Of a DNA stretch of 64,000 nucleotides, positions 5,444 to 56,301 are shown one piece after another (position 1 is the first letter of the stretch; each line of letters starts with the position of its first letter). The translations under genes were made by a program, and so were the position numbers. Below the pieces are notes generated by a model that was not told the origin of the DNA, ran no database searches, and saw only the letters and a program-made list of their open reading frames with translations. Source of the stretch: Octopus vulgaris. Its lineage: Eukaryota. Location of the stretch: contig OX597817.1 of the NCBI GenBank assembly GCA_951406725.2, positions 1,550,001 to 1,614,000 of the forward strand, read 5' to 3'.

Positions 5444-7583
5444 GGTATTATCTACTCGGGTGTATCGGGTATCAATAGAAGAGAGAACTATTAACAGCAA
5501 ATACACGGTACAAAATAACTTTTCTGAAAAAATTTCGTCTTTAATGCATTTGACTTCTTTGTGAGGATATAAAGTTCGTGTTCCGGGGAGATGGATTCCT
5601 TTAGAGGTCTATGAAAAGAGTTTTGCAAGTCATCGAGGCCCATGTATAATGGGATATATCGAACGGTAAGTCTTGAAATAATTATCTCCAAAAAATGTTT
5701 AAATGCTTTCATTTCGGCCGGGAAAACACTTCTGAAAAGAAATGAATATTTTCACATTGAACGAAGCAGCACCATTTCCTATTCAGAGGTAAATTTTAGG
5801 AATACGGAACGAAAATCTGATTATTATTTGAGTTTTCAGAAGGGAAGGAAACAAAACTGTCTTTCTCTTATCCCCACCCTCACTATCTCTCCCTCCCTCT
5901 TCGTGTTATACACATGCACACACACAGACACATACAGAGGCACACACACATAAATTTCTGTGTGCATGTGTGTGTATGTGCGCGTGTATGTTGATGTAAT
6001 TTATTTTATGAATATGCTGAAAATTACTATTTGTGCTCATATGAAAGCCAGGAATATTTTTCCGTAATGAATTTGTGTTGCAAGATTCCGAAACAGATAT
6101 TGTCGTATTTCGGGATGGTTCATATTTTTTTTTAATAATTTTTCTGTCAAATAAACACACGCAGTATATATTCATTCTGCGCTCGTTATTACTGTTTTTA
6201 TTTTGAAATAAGAACAGTAATAAACGGGTGAAGAACGAATATATAGTAAGGTTGCTTATTTGGCAAAAAAAAAAAAAAAAAAAAGAAAAGGGTAAAATGA
6301 GCATCCAGAAATACAACAATAATTTTTTTTTTTTTCCATTTTCAGGAAAAATATTGCTGTTTATCCCATAGGCTCTTGCAGAATGATGCGATGAATAAGG
6401 CGGGTGCGTTGTTTGAATTACTGAACGAGATAACTACCAAATAAAAATATGAGCGTGGGTTGAATTTGAGCGTTGCAACTCTGGGACGCGTGGTTGGACA
6501 AGGTGTTAAGAACGATATTGGGTAGATTGGTGGAAAGATGTCATGAAACAAGGTGTTTGAAGGGGAAAAAACTGTGCATCTGTGAATTGTTTTGTTTTTA
6601 ACTGTTGGTGAATGAATCTATACTAATCAGTCGAATAAGACATTTCCCATTTATTTTCGCATGTTTGTAGGGATTGTTTCAGACTCATCTGATACATGTA
6701 AATACTGCTGTGCGTAGTATTTAAGTTTTGTAGAGGCTCAACAACTGATCTGATTAGACAAGTCTGTTCTTTATGAGGCATTTTGTATAATGTTTAAACA
6801 CCACAAGAGATCTTCAGCAATTGTGACTCTTAGTAATTTGACGGCTCTGTGTGTTATTCATTGAGTGCTGTTCGTTGCGTGTAGTTCATTGTGTATTTGT
6901 TAACGTTTGTGCTAAAATGTGTAGTTTATAAATAAAGCGGTTTTATATACGACTGTTTCCTTGATATATGTAGCAAATATATCCTTAAAGCTGGAATGTT
7001 CTGCCTTCATTGAAGGATTTTTTATGGCAGTAGTTCGTGGAAATTATGGGTGTGTAGCCAGCATGAAGATGTGATGTGTGTAGGGCTGTGTATGGTGCAT
7101 TATTGTATATTAGGTGTTTTATTGGGAAATTATTCTCAGTCTGATCGGTGTCTTTTTAGGCTGTGTACAAAGCAGTAAGCTCTAGTATGTATTGATAATA
7201 TACATTTTTGTATATCATACTCCACAAACTTGTTATTTCTTATTATATTCCTCTAAGTCCTAATACATTAGATTACGTACATTTCTCTTTGTTTCAAATT
7301 TATTGTCAACTTGAACACACGTGCTCAGGATATTGTAGCTCTACAATTATTAAAATCATATTTTGCTCCACGCTTATGCTTAGTAACCCCCGTTTTGCTT
7401 GAAAGTGTCGGCGTAATGCCCAACGGAACGCACAACTCAATCGCTCATCTCTGTGAATATATTTCATTTAATGAGATCACTGGCATTGAGGTGATCTCTT
7501 GGTTTATAATATTAACTGGGTTCACGGCTTTTTACTACTTAATTTATTTCGTTATCTCTTGTAGTTTAGATATGGATATTGGT

Positions 7584-7760: not shown

Positions 7761-9085
7761 TAGTTTAGATATTGATATTGGTAATTAAATCAGACCTTCC
7801 TTATGGAATCACTTCCCCATCCATTGCTACTCGGTATTGAATATTGAATATTGACATTTTTTTTAAACTCTCATTCTACTGCCGTGGATTTGGGACTCCA
7901 TATTCCTTATTCTATTTTATTTTTATTTAAAAAATATTTTACATATCTTTTTCCTCTGAGCATTAATCTTCTAATATATAAGTAATGTTGTGGATGAGTG
8001 GTTTGTCAGAACGCTATGTCCCTAACTCAGGATCAATTTTTCCTTTCATCAATCCGATCACGATAAAATACACACCGGTAATGCACTTGGGAAAAAGGTC
8101 ATTTTAATCGACTATATCCCACCTAAATATTTGCAAACTAGTGTTTATGTTAGAAATTCTATTGGTGTTTTTCCTTTTCTTTTCTACATCTTATCACACC
8201 CAGTAATTTCGACGATTAAAATCTTTTACATTTATCTAGTAACTGCCATATCCAATTTCTTAGAGACGTGATCAACTTGGAATATTATGCACGAAGCTCT
8301 AGCCGGTTCTGTGAGGTACCAGGATTTACTTTTACCATTTAAATATTTGAAAAAGATTTCTTTTCCGATTCAATCGCATAGAATTTGAATTCAGGAGCGT
8401 TGCTTAGAAATTAGTTGATAAGCTAACAAAATATAAGAATATAGACATAAAAAGTATATTGGAGGTAAGGAGAGTTTAACGTTTGTAATAAAAGAAGCTT
8501 TCGAAGTAAGAAAAGTACATAAAGACTGATATACAAACACGATTTCAGGTTTCGAACATTACTTTCGTGCATTAACACATTGCAAAAATAACATTACTGA
8601 ACAGTAATAATTCAACTGATAAACAGAAACATACATAACACACTTAAAACAAAAATCAGTTAATCCAGAAGAATCCAACGAAGGAAATATAACTGCGTGA
8701 AAGCCCCCGACCTTCCAACTGACAAAATCGGAATTGATCAAACAATGAGGAAGATATAAGCAAGTTAATCATTAAAAATCATCGAAGCTGTAAAGAGAAA
8801 CAGACAGATTTATCATAATAAGAAATGACAAATTATATTTGAAGATTTTTTATATTCTTTCGCTATCCATATCGGGGCGCAGCTTTGGGATAGCTTTGTG
8901 ATCTGTGGACGTGACTTGCATGTCGTATACAGACCAATCTGACCACATATTGTTTCCTTTTATCTCTGAACAAACCGCCTGAACATGTTACTAAGTTTAC
9001 GATGAGTCAAGAAAATTAAGTGTCACTATTAATTTTCCCTGATTTCGACTTTTCTCTTAGTAGCCCCAAATAGTACAACACCAGA

Positions 9086-16798: not shown

Positions 16799-16874
<76 letters not shown>

Positions 16875-16877
16875 ATA

Positions 16878-17086
16878 GTTAATACAAACAAGAAAACACA
16901 AAGAGAAAACACAACAACGCGAGGACGTGGAAGAAATATAGTATTATTGGACGCTCAGGAAGGAAGGAAAGAAGGAGGGTTTAACGTTTCGAGCGGAGCC
17001 CTTCGTCGGAAACATAGGAGAAGGAAAGATCCCGAGAAGGGAAGACAGAGGAAAAGAAATCGCCAACGGTACACACGAGGTCACAT
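16878..17086 (-). mobile_element. About 205-bp Penelope-type terminal repeat / retrozyme-like element, copy A
   Basis: Homologous to 23875-24081, 51326-51494 and 51556-51757; abuts (TA)n; hammerhead-like motif at 16979-17013. Confidence 0.75.
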
Positions 17087-18224: not shown

Positions 18225-19310
18225 CGTGTGTATGAAAGTATACATGCACACGCATATATATCGATATGCGTTATTGTGAGGAAAAACGTGTTTGTGTGTA
18301 TGAATATGTACCCATGAACGTATGCTCATATATGTGTGAGTGCGTGTGTGTGTATGTGTGTATGTGTGTATGTGTGTGTTTTCTTTATATAACCCAGAAT
18401 TAAAACATTCTCAGGTGTGATATTTAGTTACTAAATCAACCGTAAAAGTGGTAAGAGCGATTTAGAAATGTGACCGAGTTGAAGCATCCCGCAGAAACAA
18501 CAGTGTAAAGCTTGCCGTCACATCAATATTTTGTCTCTAAAGATTTATTTATTCTCCAATGACAGTCTCACTATTTGTTTTCTGTCTGTATATATCTCTG
18601 TCTAGCACCTAACCAAACGTCATATTCAATAAACAAGCCACCAAATGAGACTACTGTAAATAGACATGTTGGAAAGAGTAGACCGGTAACCAAGGGGTTC
18701 GCTAAGAGAAGCCGTTAGAGTGAGCGCCTGACTTGAAAGTAAATAACTGCTGGGGTGAACTTGATTGACAAAACCTTTGAAGGCGATGTTCTAAGCATGC
18801 CTGCAGTCCAGTGATTGAAATAAAAAGAAAAGACTATATATTTATATATAAATATATGAGCTTGCGTTGGTGTATTTATCCATACATCTGTGCTTGTGAA
18901 TGCGCGTGCTTGTGTGAGTAGGTAACTCAAAATGACGAATGAACTATAGTGGAACTATTGTGTACATTATTTTCAGTTTGTAGTAAATTAGTAATTGTAT
19001 TTGTGTGTATATAATGTATATATAATGTATGTATGTATGTATGTATGTATGTATGTATGTATGTATGTATGTATGTATGTATGTATGTATGTATGTACGT
19101 ATGTATGCATGCATGTATATTTGAATGTATGTATGTAACATCTATGCCAAAGAGCGTAGGTCATTTGCCGGCGGCCTGAAACGTCACACCAATGCTGCGC
19201 AACACGAGGCCGACTCTGAAATGCTTTGGGTGGTGGCTGAGAACGAGGAAACAACCAGCTTGTTTGTGTGTGTATGTTCATGGTGTTCGGGCTAAATTTG
19301 ACAGTTTGTT

Positions 19311-19727
19311 ATTTCTTTATTGCCCACAAGGGGCTAAACATAGAGGGGACAAACAAGGACAGACAAACGGATTAAGTTGATTATATCGAGCCCAGTGCGT
19401 AACTGGTACTTAATTTATCGACCCCGAAAGGATGAAAGGCAAAGTCAACCTCATCGGAATTTGAAGTCACAACGTAACAGCAGACGAAATACCTATTTCT
19501 TTTCTGCCCACAAGGGGACAAACACAGAGGGGACAAACAAGGACAGACAAACGGATTAGGTCGATTATATCGACTCCAGTGCGTAACTGGTACTTAATTT
19601 ATCGACCCCGAAAGGATGAAAGGCAAAGTCGACCTCGGCGGAATTTGAACTCAGAACATAACGGCAGACGAAATACGGCTATGCATTTCGTCCGGCGTGT
19701 TAACGTTTCTGCCAGCTCGCCGCCCTA
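19311..19727 (-). mobile_element. tRNA-derived SINE family 2 (Nin/Deu-like domain) with tandemly duplicated 3' part
   Basis: cctttcatcctttcggggtcgataaattaagtaccag twice on minus strand; TSD tttgacagtttgt on both sides. Confidence 0.85.
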
Positions 19728-23874: not shown

Positions 23875-24079
23875 ATGTGACCTTGTGTGTACCGTTGGCG
23901 ATTTTTTTTTCCTCTGTCTTCCCTTCTCGGGATCTTTCCTTCTCCTATGTTTCCGACGAAGAGCTCCGCTCGAAACGTTAAACCCTCCGTCTTCCCTTCT
24001 TTCCTGAGCGTCCAATAAAACTATACTTGTTCCACGTCCTCGCGTTGTTGTGTTTTTTTGTGTTTTCTTGTTTGGATTA

Positions 24080-24081
<2 letters not shown>
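23875..24081 (+). mobile_element. About 205-bp Penelope-type terminal repeat / retrozyme-like element, copy B
   Basis: Same family as copy A; AATAAA downstream of the motif; T-rich 3' end running into (TA)n. Confidence 0.75.
23949..23983 (+). ncRNA. Minimal type I hammerhead ribozyme-like motif (U4C, extra A after core, palindromic stem III)
   Basis: GTTT-CCGACGA-A-GAGC-tcc-GCTC-GAAA-CG-TT-AAAC; stem I GTTT/AAAC, stem II GAGC/GCTC. Confidence 0.65.
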
Positions 24082-24124
<43 letters not shown>

Positions 24125-24126
<2 letters not shown>

Positions 24127-25318
24127 ACTTACGGCATAGTAGCCAGTGGATGTTTTGGGCTACTTTGTCGTGTCATCGCTTGTACTCATTCTGCGCAAGA
24201 CCTTCACAAGCACTGACAATGTGAATCATGCTTTCGACCCTCTTCCCACACATTCTGCAGAGGTCCGATGCACCTGTGTGGTATATATTCTTTTTCACTG
24301 AGTTGGTATTCAATGCCTTGTCCTGGGCCTCGATGATTAGGCTTTCAGTATTCTTTTCTAGGTCAACCTTGTTAAGCCACCTCCATGATGCTTCCTGCTC
24401 TTTTAATTTGTTGGTTTCATGGTGGAACTGAGCATGTAATTCCATGCGGAGTTGGGTTTCTTCTGTCTCCGTTGGCTGTTCTTGATCGGAATTCCGAAGC
24501 ACTCTCAAGTCCATTTTTGTTATATCCTTCTGCACTAGCAGCGTACTGTAGCAGGTCTTCTTTGCAGTTTACCAAATATTCTACCATGTTTCTTCTTTTA
24601 CTGTTAATGCACTCCCGTACGCTAATCAGCCCTTTGTCCACAGTTACCCTTCTTCATGTAGAGCCTGTGTACATACGCCACAGGGTGGCTGGACCATACA
24701 TTGTCATTGTCTTTTGGGTAGTGCGATTGAATTGGTTAATGTCTGCTTGTGTCCATTTCAGGATGGTTGCACTATAGTGGAATACAGCAACAGCCCATAT
24801 ATTGATAGCAGTCAGAAGGTTCCTTGAGTTGAGTTTTGATTTCAAAAGACGTTTAAGGCGCTTGAAATGTGAAGTGATGTCCATGTCTTTCATTTCTGTA
24901 TGCAAGATATTGTCCAGCTCCAGGATCCCAAGGTACGTGTACCCAACATCATCCGGGTCTTCCATTCTCTCTCTGTTTGGTAATTCTATGACCCTACAAA
25001 ATACTCTTTTCCCGCTGCTTCAAAGTAAGAACAGCGCACTTCGAGATACCAAATTCTATCCCTATATCCTTGCTGCACATTTGCATAGTATCAACCAGCC
25101 TCTCCAGGATTTCAGGCTCTGTTTTTGCGAACAGTTTTAAGTTAGCCATGAAGAGAAAGTGGTTGAGACGAGGTCCATTCTTCTCAGCTCATATTGCGCG
25201 TTGACTGCGTAGGACCACAGAAAGTGGCACCAAGGCTATAACAAATAACAGAGACTCCTTGAAAGATACCTCTCTTGATTGTTACCTCGGCTAAGTGCTG
25301 CTTGTTATGGGAAAGACT
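24125..25318 (-). mobile_element. R4/Dong-clade non-LTR retrotransposon fragment (RT to C-terminal CCHC), degraded
   Basis: IKRGIFQG, GYTYLGILELDNI, LLKSKLNSRNLLTAINIWAV, CRMCGKRVESMIHIVSACEGLAQNEYKR. Confidence 0.85.
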
Positions 25319-51280: not shown

Positions 51281-51325
51281 GTGTGTATGTTTATATATAT
51301 ATATATATATATAAATATATATATA

Positions 51326-51757
51326 GTTAATCCAAACAAGAAAGCACAAAAAAACACAACAACGCGAGGACGTGGAACAAATATAGTATTATTGGACGCT
51401 CAGGAAAGAAGGAAAGAAGGAGGGTTTAACGTTTCGACCGGAGCTCTTCGTCGGAAACATAGGAGAAGGAAAGATCCAGAGAAGGGAAGACAGATGTGAA
51501 TATATATGTATGTCTATATGTGTACATATATTTATATATATGTATATATTTGTACCGCGTGTGTACCGTTGGCGATTTTTTTTCCTCTGTCTTCCCTTCT
51601 CTGGATCTTTCCTTTTCCTATGTTTCAGACGAAGAGCTCCGCTCGAAACGTAAAACCCTCCTTCTTCCCTTCCTTCCTGGGCGTCCAATAATACTATATT
51701 TGTTCCACCTCCTCGTGTTGTTGTGATTTCTCTTTGTGTTTTCGTGTTTGGATTAAC
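51326..51757. mobile_element. Head-to-head inverted pair (copies C and D) of the same element
   Basis: 51326-51494 is the reverse complement of about 51586-51757; (TA)n on both outer sides. Confidence 0.8.
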
Positions 51758-51758
51758 T

Positions 51759-51818
<60 letters not shown>

Positions 51819-52257: not shown

Positions 52258-52440
52258 CCATACACAACACCACCAGACCACATCAAAATATTACACATCT
52301 CCAAAAGTCTGCACAACACACTCAAAGGCATTTTCCCCAGTGCGGTTGGTAAATGCCAAAAATATCTCACAAAGAAACTGTACTGGGATCTCCTCGAGGA
52401 CAAACCAGCGGAGGAGAAAGCAAAAACTTTCGAGCAGTAA
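52258..52440 (+). pseudogene. Probable C-terminal fragment of LINE ORF1
   Basis: Stop-free frame PYTTPPDHIKIL...KAKTFEQ* ending 44 nt before the ORF2 ATG and truncated at the microsatellite. Confidence 0.6.
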
Positions 52441-52484
52441 GTAACCCTCTGTTCCTTTCACTTGTATTCTAATTCATTAGGACT

Positions 52485-53960
52485 ATGATCAAGATTGGTT
52501 GTGTAAATGCGCGTGGCTTGGGGTCCCCTTGGAAACAAGGGTACCTCTTAAATGACATAAAGTCACATAAGTTAGAAATCATAGCCATAAGTGAGACCAG
52601 ACTCCACAATCCGCGGGCCCTAAAGACCATGTTTGGCGGACAGTTCAACATTTATTTTTCCCCCTGTCTCCCGAGAATGGGCGGTAGTGGCACCGCGGTA
52701 CTTTTTCGTAAGAGTCTGGATCTCAAAGTAAGGACAATATTCGTAGACCCGGGGGGTAGACTGGTCGTCCTGGATGTCGACGGCAGCAATGGGTGCACTT
52801 TTCGACTCGTATCAGTCTACGCACCGCCCTTAACAGGTCGGGCGGATTTCTTTCAACGTCTAGAAGTATTCTTGGGAACGTCTCGTCCTTTACTCTTAGT
52901 GGGGGATTGGAATGCTACCTTGGACACGCATGTAGACTACGTGGGTAGAGATAGGAATAGACGGAGATGCAAATGCCTCAGAGACCTGCTCAGACGCTTT
53001 CAACTGTCTGACAGGTTCCGACTAGACCACCCGAATGCGCCAACGTGGACATGGAGCAACCGCATCGGGTCGTCGAGATCGTATCTAGATAGGATACTGT
53101 GTAGGACAGTAGACAAAGATAGCATAGGATGTCCACAATTCCACATAGTCAGCTACACGGATCACAAACTTGTGACATGTACGCTAGACTTAGGTAAGAC
53201 ACTTAGGTAGGGTCCCGGATACTGGAAACTAAACGCGTCTTTCCCATCGAGACAGGTTTTCAGAGACCGGATTAGCACACTAGTAAAGAGGGCTTTGACG
53301 GGAGCCATCATCAACAACAAATGGTGGTTTGCCCTCAAGAGAGCAGTAAAAGCAGAAGCGATTAGGTACAGCAAAGCACTAGCCATAGACAGAAATAGAA
53401 TTGAGAGTGAGCTGGTTAAGAAGCTAGAAGAGGCAATTAGAAGCGGCATCGCATCTGACGTTTTGGCGGCGAGGTTGGCCCTCGACCAACACTTCAACGC
53501 CAAACACGAAGGATGTGCTGTCAGAGCTAGGATGCGTGCTCTAAGGAACGAAGGTGTTGGAGCCGCGAGAGAGGCCCGGGTGGCAGAGGCGCAACAGGGC
53601 AACAAAGCCACCATTCGGTCCCTGGTAGATGAACAGGGGCGCGAATTGATCGAGCCAAGTAAAATGTGTGAGGCCTTTCAGCAGCATTTTGCCCGACTGT
53701 TCGGGACGAGTGGAGGGCAAGAACGTAGGGTGGACTTCAGTGCCTACCTACATAGCCTACCACGACTCTCGACAAGAAAGGCAGGGTGCTGCGAAGGTGC
53801 CATCACGGCGGAGGAAGTGCAGGAAGCGATGGCAGAATGCTCGAGGGACAAATCACCAGGTTTGGATGGTCTACCCTACGAGCTTTACAATTGTATGCCA
53901 GACTTGTTTGGAGATCTCTTGGCGGCGGTGTACTGCAACTGGCAGCAAAACGGGAGCATT
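52485..53960 (+). pseudogene. LINE ORF2 N-terminal half (APE endonuclease, linker, start of RT region); in-frame TAG at 53208-53210
   Basis: Motifs NARGL, ISET, VGDWN, YLDRIL, TDHKLV; the same frame continues past the stop (GPGYWKLN) into the 53295 ORF with KSPGLDGLPYELY. Confidence 0.93.
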
Positions 53961-54329
53961 TGAGATCCAGACTCTTACGAAAAAGTACCGCGGTGCCACT
54001 ACCGCCCATTCTCGGGAGACAGGGGGAAAAATAAATGTTGAACTGTCCGCCAAACATGGTCTTTAAGGCCCGCGGATTGTGGAGTCTGGTCTCACTTATG
54101 GCTATGATTTCTAACTTATGTGACTTTATGTCATTTAAGAGGTCCCCTTGTTTCCAAGGGGACCCCAAGCCACGCGCATTTACACAACCAATCTTGATCA
54201 TAGTCCTAATGAATTAGAATACAAGTGAAAGGAACAGAGGGTTACTTACTGCTCGAAAGTTTTTGCTTTCTCCTCTGCTGGTTTGTCCTCGAGGAGATCC
54301 CAGTACAGTTTCTTTGTGAGATATTTTTG
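53959..54329 (-). repeat. Inverted duplicate of 52357-52727 inside the LINE
   Basis: 371-bp reverse-complement match with 3 substitutions found by eye. Confidence 0.97.
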
Positions 54330-54342
54330 AGCCGATATTTTT

Positions 54343-56301
54343 GGTTTTGTGAGCCGAGGAGCCGTAACACTGCTGAAGAAAGATCTAAACAAGGGAAATG
54401 TAATAGATAACTTTAGGCCTATCACTCTGCTTAATGCAGACTTGAAAATTTTGGCCAAGGTGCTAGCCAAGAGGTTGGCGCTTGTCATCGAGAAACTGGT
54501 CGACAAGGCGCAAACATGCGCCGTGCCGGGCCGGAGCATCCATGACAACCTCCACCTGATGCGCTACATCATAGACAGGGTAGTTAACGAACATGGCATG
54601 GGTGGGGCGCTGATCAATTTGGATCAATCGAAAGCTTTCGATAGGGTAGACCATCGATACTTGGAGACGGTCCTCAGAGCGGTAGGCTTCGGTCCCGTCT
54701 TCCGCGGCTGGATAGCCGCTTTGTACAGAGGCATCCGTTCGGTAATTCGCGTGAATGGACATCTATCGAGACCCTTCGACATCGCACGTTCGGTCCGTCA
54801 GGGATGCCCCCTCTCGTCGCTTCTATACGTATTGACTCTCGAGCCATTATTGCGGAAGCTGGCAACTTTGAGGGGCATCCCGCGAGAACTGGGATGCGGG
54901 ACGAGCGTGTCTGCATACGCGGACGACGTCACCGTCATAGTGTCTAGCCACGAGCACATCGAGCAGGTCGGCGAGACACTGAAAAACTACGAAGCGGTGA
55001 CAGGAGCGAAAATCAACCGGGAAAAGTCAGTGGGCTTGCGACTAGGCACCTGGAGAAGCAAGCCCATGCCGTCCACCAGCGCCTCCGTCGTGGGACGCTG
55101 GACCGACGGCCCGGTTGAGTTGCTCGGGGTCTGGTTTGGTCCGGACCTCCAAGTGGAGAAGAACTGGAACGAGATAACGAGTAGGGTGGTCACTCTCGCC
55201 CGGCAATGGGCCGAGAGGAAACTGTCCCTAAAAGGTCGGGCGGAGGTGGCGAACACGTACATCGCGTCCGTCATCTACTACCGCCTGACCGTCGTACCAT
55301 GTCCCAACCCTACCATCACCAAACTACAACGCATTCTCTTTCGCTTCTTGTGGAAAGGATGCGTCCCGATGGTCAGGCGATCCATTTGCTGTCAACACCC
55401 GTTAAAAGGAGGGCTGGGCATGCCGTGGTTGATGATGCGCAGACACGCGCTGAGACTGCGACATCTCTGGCTCTATGTAGACGACGGTGAACAGATGTGG
55501 TTGCCGTTTGTGAGGCACGCTTTCCCGCAGCTCGTCTCCATGACCGAACTGCAGTCGTGGATCAAAAAGAGGCCGAAGAAGGGCGAATGGCACCGCGAGT
55601 GTCGCGTTGCTCTCAAGCAACTCTGCCGTCCCGGGTCGACCTTGAGTGACTTCATCACAACCAAAGCATTCTATAGGGGATTAGTGGAGGGGAGGTACGA
55701 CGACGAGCTCGGGGCGAACCTGGACGTCGACGAGGAGTACCTGACCCGCCTGTTCAGGACGACTTTCGGGCCAGGGCCCATGGACAACTTCCAGAGATCC
55801 CTGGTCTGGCAGTGCTACCGAGAAGCGCTACCCGTTCGGGATAAGCTCTACAGACACGGCTCGAGAAACACGGGGCCGACCTGCCCGAGATGCGGTCAGA
55901 GCGACGAAACCGTTCTGCACGCACTCGTTCAGTGTCCAACAATTTCCGACCTGTGGGCTTATGTCGAACAACTGCTGTCACGTGTGGGACGAGTCGGTTT
56001 ATCAGCTGAGTCTATCGTCAATATTGTCACGCCTCCTTCCTTCAAACGGGAAGGAAGAGCTATTTTCATCATCCTTGTGGCTATGGCGAAAGAATGTATC
56101 TGGTGGACGCGTCTGAAAGGATTGGAGACAAACACTTTCCTCTCTGGTCAATCTCTCATCAACTTCTTCAAGTACCACTTGAAAAGGAAAGTGAGAGTAG
56201 AGAGGCAAGTTTTGTCTAGCGAATGTTTTAAAAAAAGATGGGTGAATGTAGCAAGAATGGCACGTATGAATGACGAAGCCACCTTGAGCATAATCCTATG
56301 A
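54343..56301 (+). pseudogene. LINE ORF2 C-terminal half (reverse transcriptase and C-terminal zinc knuckle)
   Basis: FRPITLLNADLKILAKVL, LDQSKAFDRV, QGCPLS, YADD, CPRCGQSDETVLHALVQC; open for 650 aa. Confidence 0.95.

What the first reader, a model, noticed from the sequence alone, without database searches (positions are those of the whole stretch)
23875..24081. Dispersed about 205-bp non-coding element carrying a minimal, dimer-dependent hammerhead ribozyme-like motif (four copies in 64 kb)
Seen: four copies (16878, 23875, 51326, 51556), all beside (TA)n, share GTTT-CCGACGA-A-GAGC-tcc-GCTC-GAAA-CGTT-AAAC. This gives a 4-bp stem I, a 4-bp stem II, the core with U4C plus one extra A, and a loopless self-complementary ACGT stem III. 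Copy A changes a stem II pair to a tolerated G-U. Copy C has a G-G mismatch and copy D has CAGACGA/GUA. Established: Penelope-like element terminal repeats and metazoan non-LTR retrozymes carry minimal type I hammerheads thought to act as dimers. Inference: an abundant, microsatellite-targeted retrozyme-like family with a non-canonical core that standard CUGANGA searches would miss.
Basis: partly seen in the sequence, partly recalled or inferred. Interest (0 to 1): 0.85.

Follow-up and report, generated by a model that had tools for sequence, protein, structure and literature searches.

The report
Penelope retroelement end with variant hammerhead
This 205-base repeat is the terminal repeat of a known kind of animal jumping gene (a Penelope-like retroelement), left as roughly 20,000 short stubs in TA repeats, and it carries the known minimal hammerhead motif, predicted but not shown to cut RNA, with one core letter changed in most copies.

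Summary
The four copies and the motif are real. The unit is not a free retrozyme. It flanks reverse transcriptase + GIY-YIG ORFs as a direct repeat in the same genome, so it is the pseudo-LTR of a Neptune-type Penelope-like element (PLE). A 29-base core has 10,308 exact matches, about 22,000 copies by estimate; most are solo stubs ending in (TA)n. The extra A, short stems and palindromic stem III are published features of PLE minimal hammerheads (PMC4209133). Only U4C departs from that consensus. U4C looks derived: the older subfamilies have U4 (2,681 exact copies), while the largest and the youngest intact subfamilies have C4. The 26-base core is otherwise invariant against 33% flank divergence. 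The same C4 core, with a covarying stem I, occurs in an unrelated PLE family in metagenome contigs. Copies span the cut site and almost none start there, so insertion likely uses uncleaved RNA. Cleavage is untested. This scan has noted related U4C PLE ends elsewhere in this genome (e1-9568192, e1-9543091).

The parts
23875..24081 (+). Copy B: solo pLTR (3' end) of a Neptune-type PLE, main C4 subfamily
   Evidence: 92% identical over 200 bases to the downstream pLTR of ORF-bearing locus L199
23949..23983 (+). Minimal type I hammerhead motif: stem I, core with C4 at 23954, extra A, stem II, palindromic ACGU; predicted cut after 23979
   Evidence: sequence; matches the consensus in PMC4209133 Fig S3 except position 4; pair counts
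24084..24123 (.). (TA)20 target array at the 3' end of copy B
16878..17086 (-). Copy A: solo pLTR, C4, G-U in stem II; groups nearest the U4a subfamily
16823..16877 (.). (TA)n target array at the 3' end of copy A
51326..51494 (-). Copy C: 5'-shortened solo pLTR, main subfamily, G-G mismatch in stem II
51292..51325 (.). (TA)n array at the 3' end of copy C
51559..51757 (+). Copy D: solo pLTR of the U4a subfamily (GUA triplet) with a private A at position 4; head-to-head with copy C
51759..51815 (.). (TA)n target array at the 3' end of copy D

Best explanation
The unit is the terminal repeat (pLTR) of a Penelope-like retroelement that encodes a reverse transcriptase and a GIY-YIG nuclease elsewhere in this genome, and the window's four copies are stubs likely made when that enzyme copied only the last ~205 bases of uncleaved element RNA into a nicked TA repeat. 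Shown: the unit flanks the ORF on both sides with a period of 5.4-6.2 kb; downstream and solo copies stop at a short TTATA stretch that the element itself carries at the pLTR-body junction; 157 of 184 3' ends run into (TA)n. Inferred: the nuclease nicks (TA)n, the nicked end pairs with that stretch and primes reverse transcription, which mostly runs off near base 1 of the unit (a likely transcription start in the pLTR). The hammerhead is predicted to be a weak, dimer- or protein-dependent ribozyme of the parent transcript that is not needed for insertion. U4C likely arose once in the master lineage and was tolerated, or favoured, as an attenuating change. The solo copies are inferred to be inert, decaying by-products.
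For: pLTR: 20 loci were fetched around thumb-domain hits; all 20 carry a match to the unit and 10 have it on both sides of the ORF. L209 is 91-92% identical to copy B; L198's ORF is 86% identical to the intact 949-aa protein of L204. That protein has weak RVT_1 (E 0.001) and GIY-YIG (E 0.011) Pfam hits in PLE order, both below cut-off, a C-x4-CxxC linker and 463 homologues, most listed ones with PF00078 + PF26215. Target; (TA)n bias is known for Naiad and Neptune PLEs (PMC8557442). Junction. 5' ends: 46 of 66 within -15..+16 of base 1. Uncleaved template: starts at the cut site 29 matches (27 places) vs 10 and 19 at two control positions; the anole Poseidon element also inserts uncleaved RNA and its hammerhead needs the protein (PMC11167929). 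Selection on the core: 0 of 26 core differences vs 39 of 117 flank differences between main and youngest subfamilies, Fisher p 1.4e-4. Stem I covaries between this family and the metagenome family. Polarity of U4C: U4b/U4c copies are older (flank divergence 8.3% and 5.0% vs 3.3% for main; p 1e-5); U4 is 26% of exact matches against 3% for a CpG-decay control. Long or ORF-linked members exist in the subfamilies examined.
Against: No cleavage assay. The lone motif is predicted to misfold (core GACG pairs with the CGUU palindrome), and the unconstrained dimer does not fold as a hammerhead dimer either. Stem II is invariant but for one G-U change, so it gives no covariation; the stem I covariation is two lineage-level events, and the count of pairs changed on both sides does not beat shuffles (241/500). 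The youngest family has a U-U mismatch in stem I. No transcription start was mapped. U4a and main are not separable in age (p 0.16), and the subfamily tree is rooted only by copy age and by published U4 motifs. In 51 copies picked by their 5' end, non-CpG decay was 1.4% in the core vs 2.7% in flanks, which pure neutrality does not predict, although hidden subfamily differences in the flanks could cause it.
Confidence: 0.8

Rival explanations
1. The solo ~205-base units are a SINE-like non-autonomous lineage: they are transcribed from their own pLTR promoter and re-copied in trans by the PLE enzyme.
For: Narrow 5'-end peak (46 of 66); solos vastly outnumber long copies (about 22,000 units, vs 263 exact matches to a motif reaching 15 bases further 5'). 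Rotifer pLTRs suffice in cis for mobilisation in trans (PMC3846280 passages).
Against: Solo and long copies are intermixed in the tree, and the subfamilies examined have long or ORF-linked members; no solo-only subfamily was seen in 186 copies.
Confidence: 0.2
2. The conserved core no longer cuts: with U4C it is kept as a binding site for the element's protein or as a DNA promoter element.
For: U4C considerably lowers activity in vitro in a viroid hammerhead (PMC3088659); the youngest family also has a weaker stem I; conservation is at sequence level, loop II included; no genomic footprint of cleavage.
Against: Stem I pairing is kept with different letters and loop II differs in the metagenome family; position 17 varies only among U, C and A, as a hammerhead requires; the viroid U4C variant still works in vivo.
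Confidence: 0.25
3. One reading: a non-LTR retrozyme family that spreads through self-cleaved monomers and circles.
For: Monomer size fits (150-450 bp) and retrozymes are thought to derive from PLE pLTRs (PMC7229834 passages; bioRxiv 10.64898/2026.07.22.740005).
Against: No arrays of units: 12 of 139 3-kb loci hold more than one copy, 5 on the same strand, none an array of like units. Ends are fixed at the pLTR boundary, not at the cut site. The hammerhead is of the minimal PLE type, not the canonical retrozyme type. The unit flanks ORFs.
Confidence: 0.03

Closest known systems
[quoted passage not shown]
   Same: Type I, 3-5 bp stem I, unpaired base between 9 and 10.1, G10.1-C11.1, palindromic 15.2-16.2, no loop III, mostly single motifs from truncated PLEs; the Acropora motif has nearly the same stem II and the same GAAA-CGU.
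   Different: Position 4 is C in about three quarters of copies; the Fig S3 motifs as extracted all show U4. Loop II is 3 bases.
Neptune/Nematis-type EN+ PLEs (PMC8557442)
   Same: Single ORF, RT then C-terminal GIY-YIG, C-x2-5-CxxC linker, pLTRs from partial tandems, inverted stubs, (TA)n targets.
   Different: About 3 kb CA-rich 3' UTR; clade not placed on a tree with named references.
PAc, Poseidon element of the green anole (PMC11167929)
   Same: Copies contain the intact hammerhead; insertion from uncleaved RNA; AT-rich targets; copying starts near the pLTR-body junction.
   Different: Here the end point has 4-7 bases of TA-like homology to the target, and the hammerhead lies well upstream of the ORF; PAc initiates without homology and its motif overlaps the ORF start.
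U4C natural viroid hammerhead variant (as cited in PMC3088659)
   Same: Same core change.
   Different: There a rare variant of a full ribozyme; here fixed in an expanding retroelement lineage with a minimal motif.
Non-LTR retrozymes (PMC7229834)
   Same: Short non-coding unit with a type I hammerhead, thousands of copies.
   Different: No tandem arrays, no canonical stems, ends not at the cut site, protein-coding parent attached.

Membership tests
EN+ Penelope-like element (pLTR of) | Direct terminal repeats flanking one ORF | tested here: met
   10 of 20 fetched loci have the unit on both sides, period 5.4-6.2 kb
EN+ Penelope-like element (pLTR of) | RT followed by C-terminal GIY-YIG nuclease | tested here: met
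   YIDD and IYC..YVGQT motifs in the ORF; weak Pfam hits below cut-off; homologues with PF00078, PF26215, PF01541
EN+ Penelope-like element (pLTR of) | 5'-truncated copies, partial tandems and inverted stubs | tested here: met
   upstream repeat 250-580 bases in five young copies
EN+ Penelope-like element (pLTR of) | RT groups with PLE RTs in a phylogeny | not tested
   no named reference proteins at hand
Neptune clade | C-x2-5-CxxC linker between RT and EN (shared with Nematis) | tested here: met
   definition from PMC8557442 passages
Neptune clade | Placement in the Neptune clade rather than Nematis | not tested
   hence 'Neptune-type'; the motif's likeness to the Acropora Neptune hammerhead is only a lead
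PLE minimal hammerhead | Short stem I, stem II with G10.1-C11.1, extra base after A9, palindromic stem III, NUH | tested here: met
   against the consensus
PLE minimal hammerhead | Core CUGANGA with U4 | tested here: not met
   U4 in 2,681 of 10,308 exact matches; C4 in 78 of the first 100 listed and in three window copies; so a variant, not a consensus member
PLE minimal hammerhead | Self-cleavage as a dimer or with protein help | not testable with these tools
   needs an in vitro assay
Non-LTR retrozyme | Head-to-tail arrays of units, each with a hammerhead | tested here: not met
   window copies are single or head-to-head
Non-LTR retrozyme | Canonical type I hammerhead (6-bp stem I, loop-loop contacts) | tested here: not met
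   4-bp stem I, 3-base loop II
Non-LTR retrozyme | Monomeric linear and circular RNA ending at the cut site | tested here: inconclusive
   only assembled contigs of guessed type were available

The most novel reading that the evidence does not exclude
U4C is a repeatedly selected brake: two distant PLE lineages (this genome and the metagenome family) each fixed the same core change against CpG mutation pressure, because a slower, protein-gated hammerhead leaves more uncleaved RNA for insertion, and the largest burst of copies followed the change. The natural U4 and C4 subfamilies would then form a ready-made series for testing what PLE hammerheads are for.
Probability: 0.15. Interest if true: 0.6.

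Novelty: new variant of a known kind. Interest (0 to 1): 0.3.

Why it matters
The role of PLE hammerheads is an open question (PMC8557442, PMC11167929). This family offers natural U4 and C4 versions of one motif, with ordered ages and an intact young parent, so activity and its effect on transposition can be compared directly. It also shows that CUGANGA-based counts would miss about three quarters of the motifs in such a family. The element class, its layout, its target and the minimal motif are all already described.

Tried and rejected
Rfam: no hammerhead hit on the unit. Expression: no RNA holder listed; 19 of 23 rows hold the young element, all as assembled contigs, type guessed or unknown. 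Two layings cover the unit and show C to T at 23954 in 11-24% of summed contig depth in four runs, but contigs cannot show strand, ends, level or circles, so nothing is drawn from them. First candidate parent, an AT-rich 811-aa PLE family found through an RT fragment near L118: rejected, it lacks the unit. No PLE ORF remnant lies in the window. A genome search by Pfam PF26215 was not possible. CpG decay as the source of U4 copies: rejected (26% vs 3%; 27 of 28 U4-selected copies fall in U4 subfamilies). A genomic footprint of cleavage: not found; the small excess at the cut site is explained by a TA overlap there. Folding gave only a small U4/C4 difference in misfold probability (0.67 vs 0.51, two natural copies that also differ in loop II); not used. 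Unselected DNA: 3 copies in 190 kb (19 stretches), too few for a density. Literature: Lunse et al. 2017 on PLE hammerhead variants could not be read and may already report U4C; one search returned an unrelated paper. Searches 'hammerhead+U4C' (1 paper), 'hammerhead+CCGA+catalytic core+retrotransposon' (1 unrelated), 'hammerhead+octopus' (15 of 51 listed, none on this family) and searches showed no report of U4C in a PLE; bioRxiv supplements and figure images were not visible.

Full report
Observation. The four copies, their strands, their (TA)n neighbours and every stated base change are in the sequence. The own genome has 2.8 Gb in 227 contigs; it looks like an octopus genome, which is my inference from size and recalled repeat types, not a call result. 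A 29-base core pattern with position 4 free has 10,308 exact matches and 0 reversed-control matches. Of 66 copies not picked by their core, 31 match that pattern, which gives about 22,000 copies; 3 copies in 190 kb of unselected DNA agree only loosely (95% range 3-46 per Mb).

The unit is the end of something longer. 3' ends are fixed: 184 of 195 copies reach the end and 157 of these run into (TA)n; 8 of the 27 others are upstream pLTRs that run into the element body. 5' ends vary. Copies picked by a motif just upstream (263 matches) continue through more than 1 kb of shared CA-rich sequence. One of them, L121, has a PLE thumb-domain fragment 2 kb upstream on the same strand. A genome search with that fragment gave 8,713 candidates, 150 scored. 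I fetched 20 of these, chosen for high score or long open frames. All 20 carry a match to the unit, and 10 have it on both sides of the ORF; in L197 the upstream copy is fused into the ORF and is not counted. L209 is 91-92% identical to copy B; L198 and L199 are 87-91%; a young family with an unbroken 1008-codon frame (949 aa from the first Met) is about 75% identical, and 14 of its 15 copies examined differ from their consensus at 0-1 of 131 flank sites. The protein reads RT, thumb, C-x4-CxxC linker, GIY-YIG, with weak Pfam support and 463 homologues, the few named ones from corals, snails and an urchin. That is the layout of Neptune- or Nematis-type PLEs (PMC8557442, passages). I did not place it on a tree.

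The hammerhead. PMC4209133 (main text parts 1-2 of 4 and supplement parts 1-2 of 3 read) defines the PLE minimal motif with a short stem I, a conserved base between 9 and 10.1, G10.1-C11.1 and a palindromic stem III, mostly as single motifs of truncated PLEs, with low activity even as dimers. The motif here fits all of this; the Acropora digitifera Neptune motif in Fig S3 is nearly the same. Only position 4 differs. U4C is known as a natural viroid variant with lower activity in vitro that still supports infection (PMC3088659, passages and section 8). Across seven subfamily consensuses built from 186 copies, 1 of 26 core columns varies (position 4) against 85 of 150 flank columns; main vs young is 0 of 26 against 39 of 117. 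In the inserted copies it decays: 30 of 66 no longer fit the motif.

A second family. One metagenome scan with the C4 core gave 65 loci, 47 distinct contexts. Their flanks are unrelated to the window's unit; six have a GIY-YIG fragment upstream of the motif and one more has a thumb-region match in the opposite orientation. They match the published coral Neptune motif but with C4. The pattern forced C4, yet 5 of 6 neighbouring motifs not matched by the pattern also have C4. Stem I pairs there with different letters. On a 14-row alignment that I chose (6 own, 8 metagenome), 92% of cells pair and two stem I pairs switch UA to GC or CG; these are two lineage-level changes, and the pair-count measure does not beat shuffles.

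History of U4C. U4 is in 2,681 of 10,308 exact matches; the CpG-decay control at position 7 has 235. U4 copies form their own clade, and 27 of 28 U4-selected copies fall in U4 subfamilies. With the 29 loci picked for likeness to copy B left out, flank divergence is 8.3% (U4b, 5 copies), 5.0% (U4c, 20), 3.0% (U4a, 18), 3.3% (main C4, 74), median 1.1% (young C4, 22). The consensus tree is a chain U4b/c, U4a, main, then the other C4 groups. The simplest reading is one U-to-C change that persisted to the youngest intact family. U4a and main overlap in age, and the root rests on ages and on published U4 motifs. Window copy D is a mutated U4a copy; B and C are main; A groups nearest U4a.

How the stubs likely form. 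Upstream pLTRs run into the body through a short TTATA stretch, and downstream and solo copies end in that stretch and go on as (TA)n. This suggests target-primed copying from nicked (TA)n with a few bases of homology (inference). 46 of 66 copies start within -15..+16 of base 1, 5 further upstream, 15 further in; some of the 15 are diverged subfamilies whose alignment stops early. Such a peak suggests run-off at an RNA 5' end in the pLTR, not random truncation (inference; no start was mapped). If cleaved RNA were the template, copies would begin at 23980. Genome-wide, TA-flanked starts there number 29 matches at 27 places, against 10 and 19 at control positions, among about 22,000 units. This agrees with the anole Poseidon element, whose hammerhead needs the protein and is dispensable for insertion in vitro (PMC11167929, parts 1-2 of 4 read). 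Folding predicts that the lone motif hides its palindrome by pairing with the core, consistent with a gated ribozyme but also with a dead one.

Not a retrozyme. Retrozymes are tandem arrays with canonical motifs, expressed as circles (PMC7229834, passages; bioRxiv 10.64898/2026.07.22.740005, parts 1-2 of 5). Here 12 of 139 short loci hold more than one copy, 5 on the same strand, none as an array. C and D are head-to-head and from different subfamilies, so no window copy has a same-strand partner. Solo pLTRs are described in rotifers (PMC3846280, passages). An octopus repeat annotation lists active Penelope families but does not mention ribozymes (PMC13282606, passages). PMC6765202 was seen as passages.

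Earlier notes of this scan, read after my analysis, reach the same class for other pieces of this genome; a look-up by sequence gave one unrelated note.

Verdict. Real, abundant, and explained: the pLTR of a Neptune-type PLE with the known minimal hammerhead. What is new is narrow: U4C fixed in an active lineage and seen again in a distant family. I found no report of this in the searches named, but the most relevant paper was unavailable. Interest 0.3.

Noticed in passing
L156 (G000:C25:4968500-4978499), minus strand, about 2775-2810 and 6770-6805 of the reverse complement; also L154-L159: A separate, young AT-rich PLE family (unbroken 811-aa RT + GIY-YIG frame in many copies, plus an upstream ~490-aa frame) whose pLTR seems to hold a minimal hammerhead with the U3-A8 core swap and a six-base palindrome (motif read by eye).
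   Followed up: partly
L046:128-176 (+); L036:2368 (+): Other minimal hammerhead families in this genome: one with canonical core and a long stem II (2 copies seen), one U3-A8 type (4 copies seen).
   Followed up: no
window 52357-56298: LINE with endonuclease-like (52473-53207) and RT-like (54331-56298) frames whose 5' part is duplicated in inverted orientation: 371-base arms, 99% complementary, 1231 bases apart. L1/Tx1-like by recall.
   Followed up: no
window 19310-19676: Tandem pair of a 184-base unit, 91% matches; resembles an abundant octopus SINE by recall; related pieces recur in many fetched loci.
   Followed up: no
window 24176-24568 (-): 131-codon fragment that looks like the C-terminal part of an R4/Dong-type LINE protein (recalled), just beyond copy B's TA array.
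   Followed up: no
L204:4460-7100 and L121: The parent element has a ~2.8 kb CA-rich 3' UTR with two GC-rich islands; L121 joins the thumb region to the UTR without the nuclease domain.
   Followed up: partly
L209:3321-3514 and 8678-8863 (-): Both pLTRs of this copy share a C3-to-U change in the core, suggesting that it was copied from an RNA or master with a defective motif.
   Followed up: no
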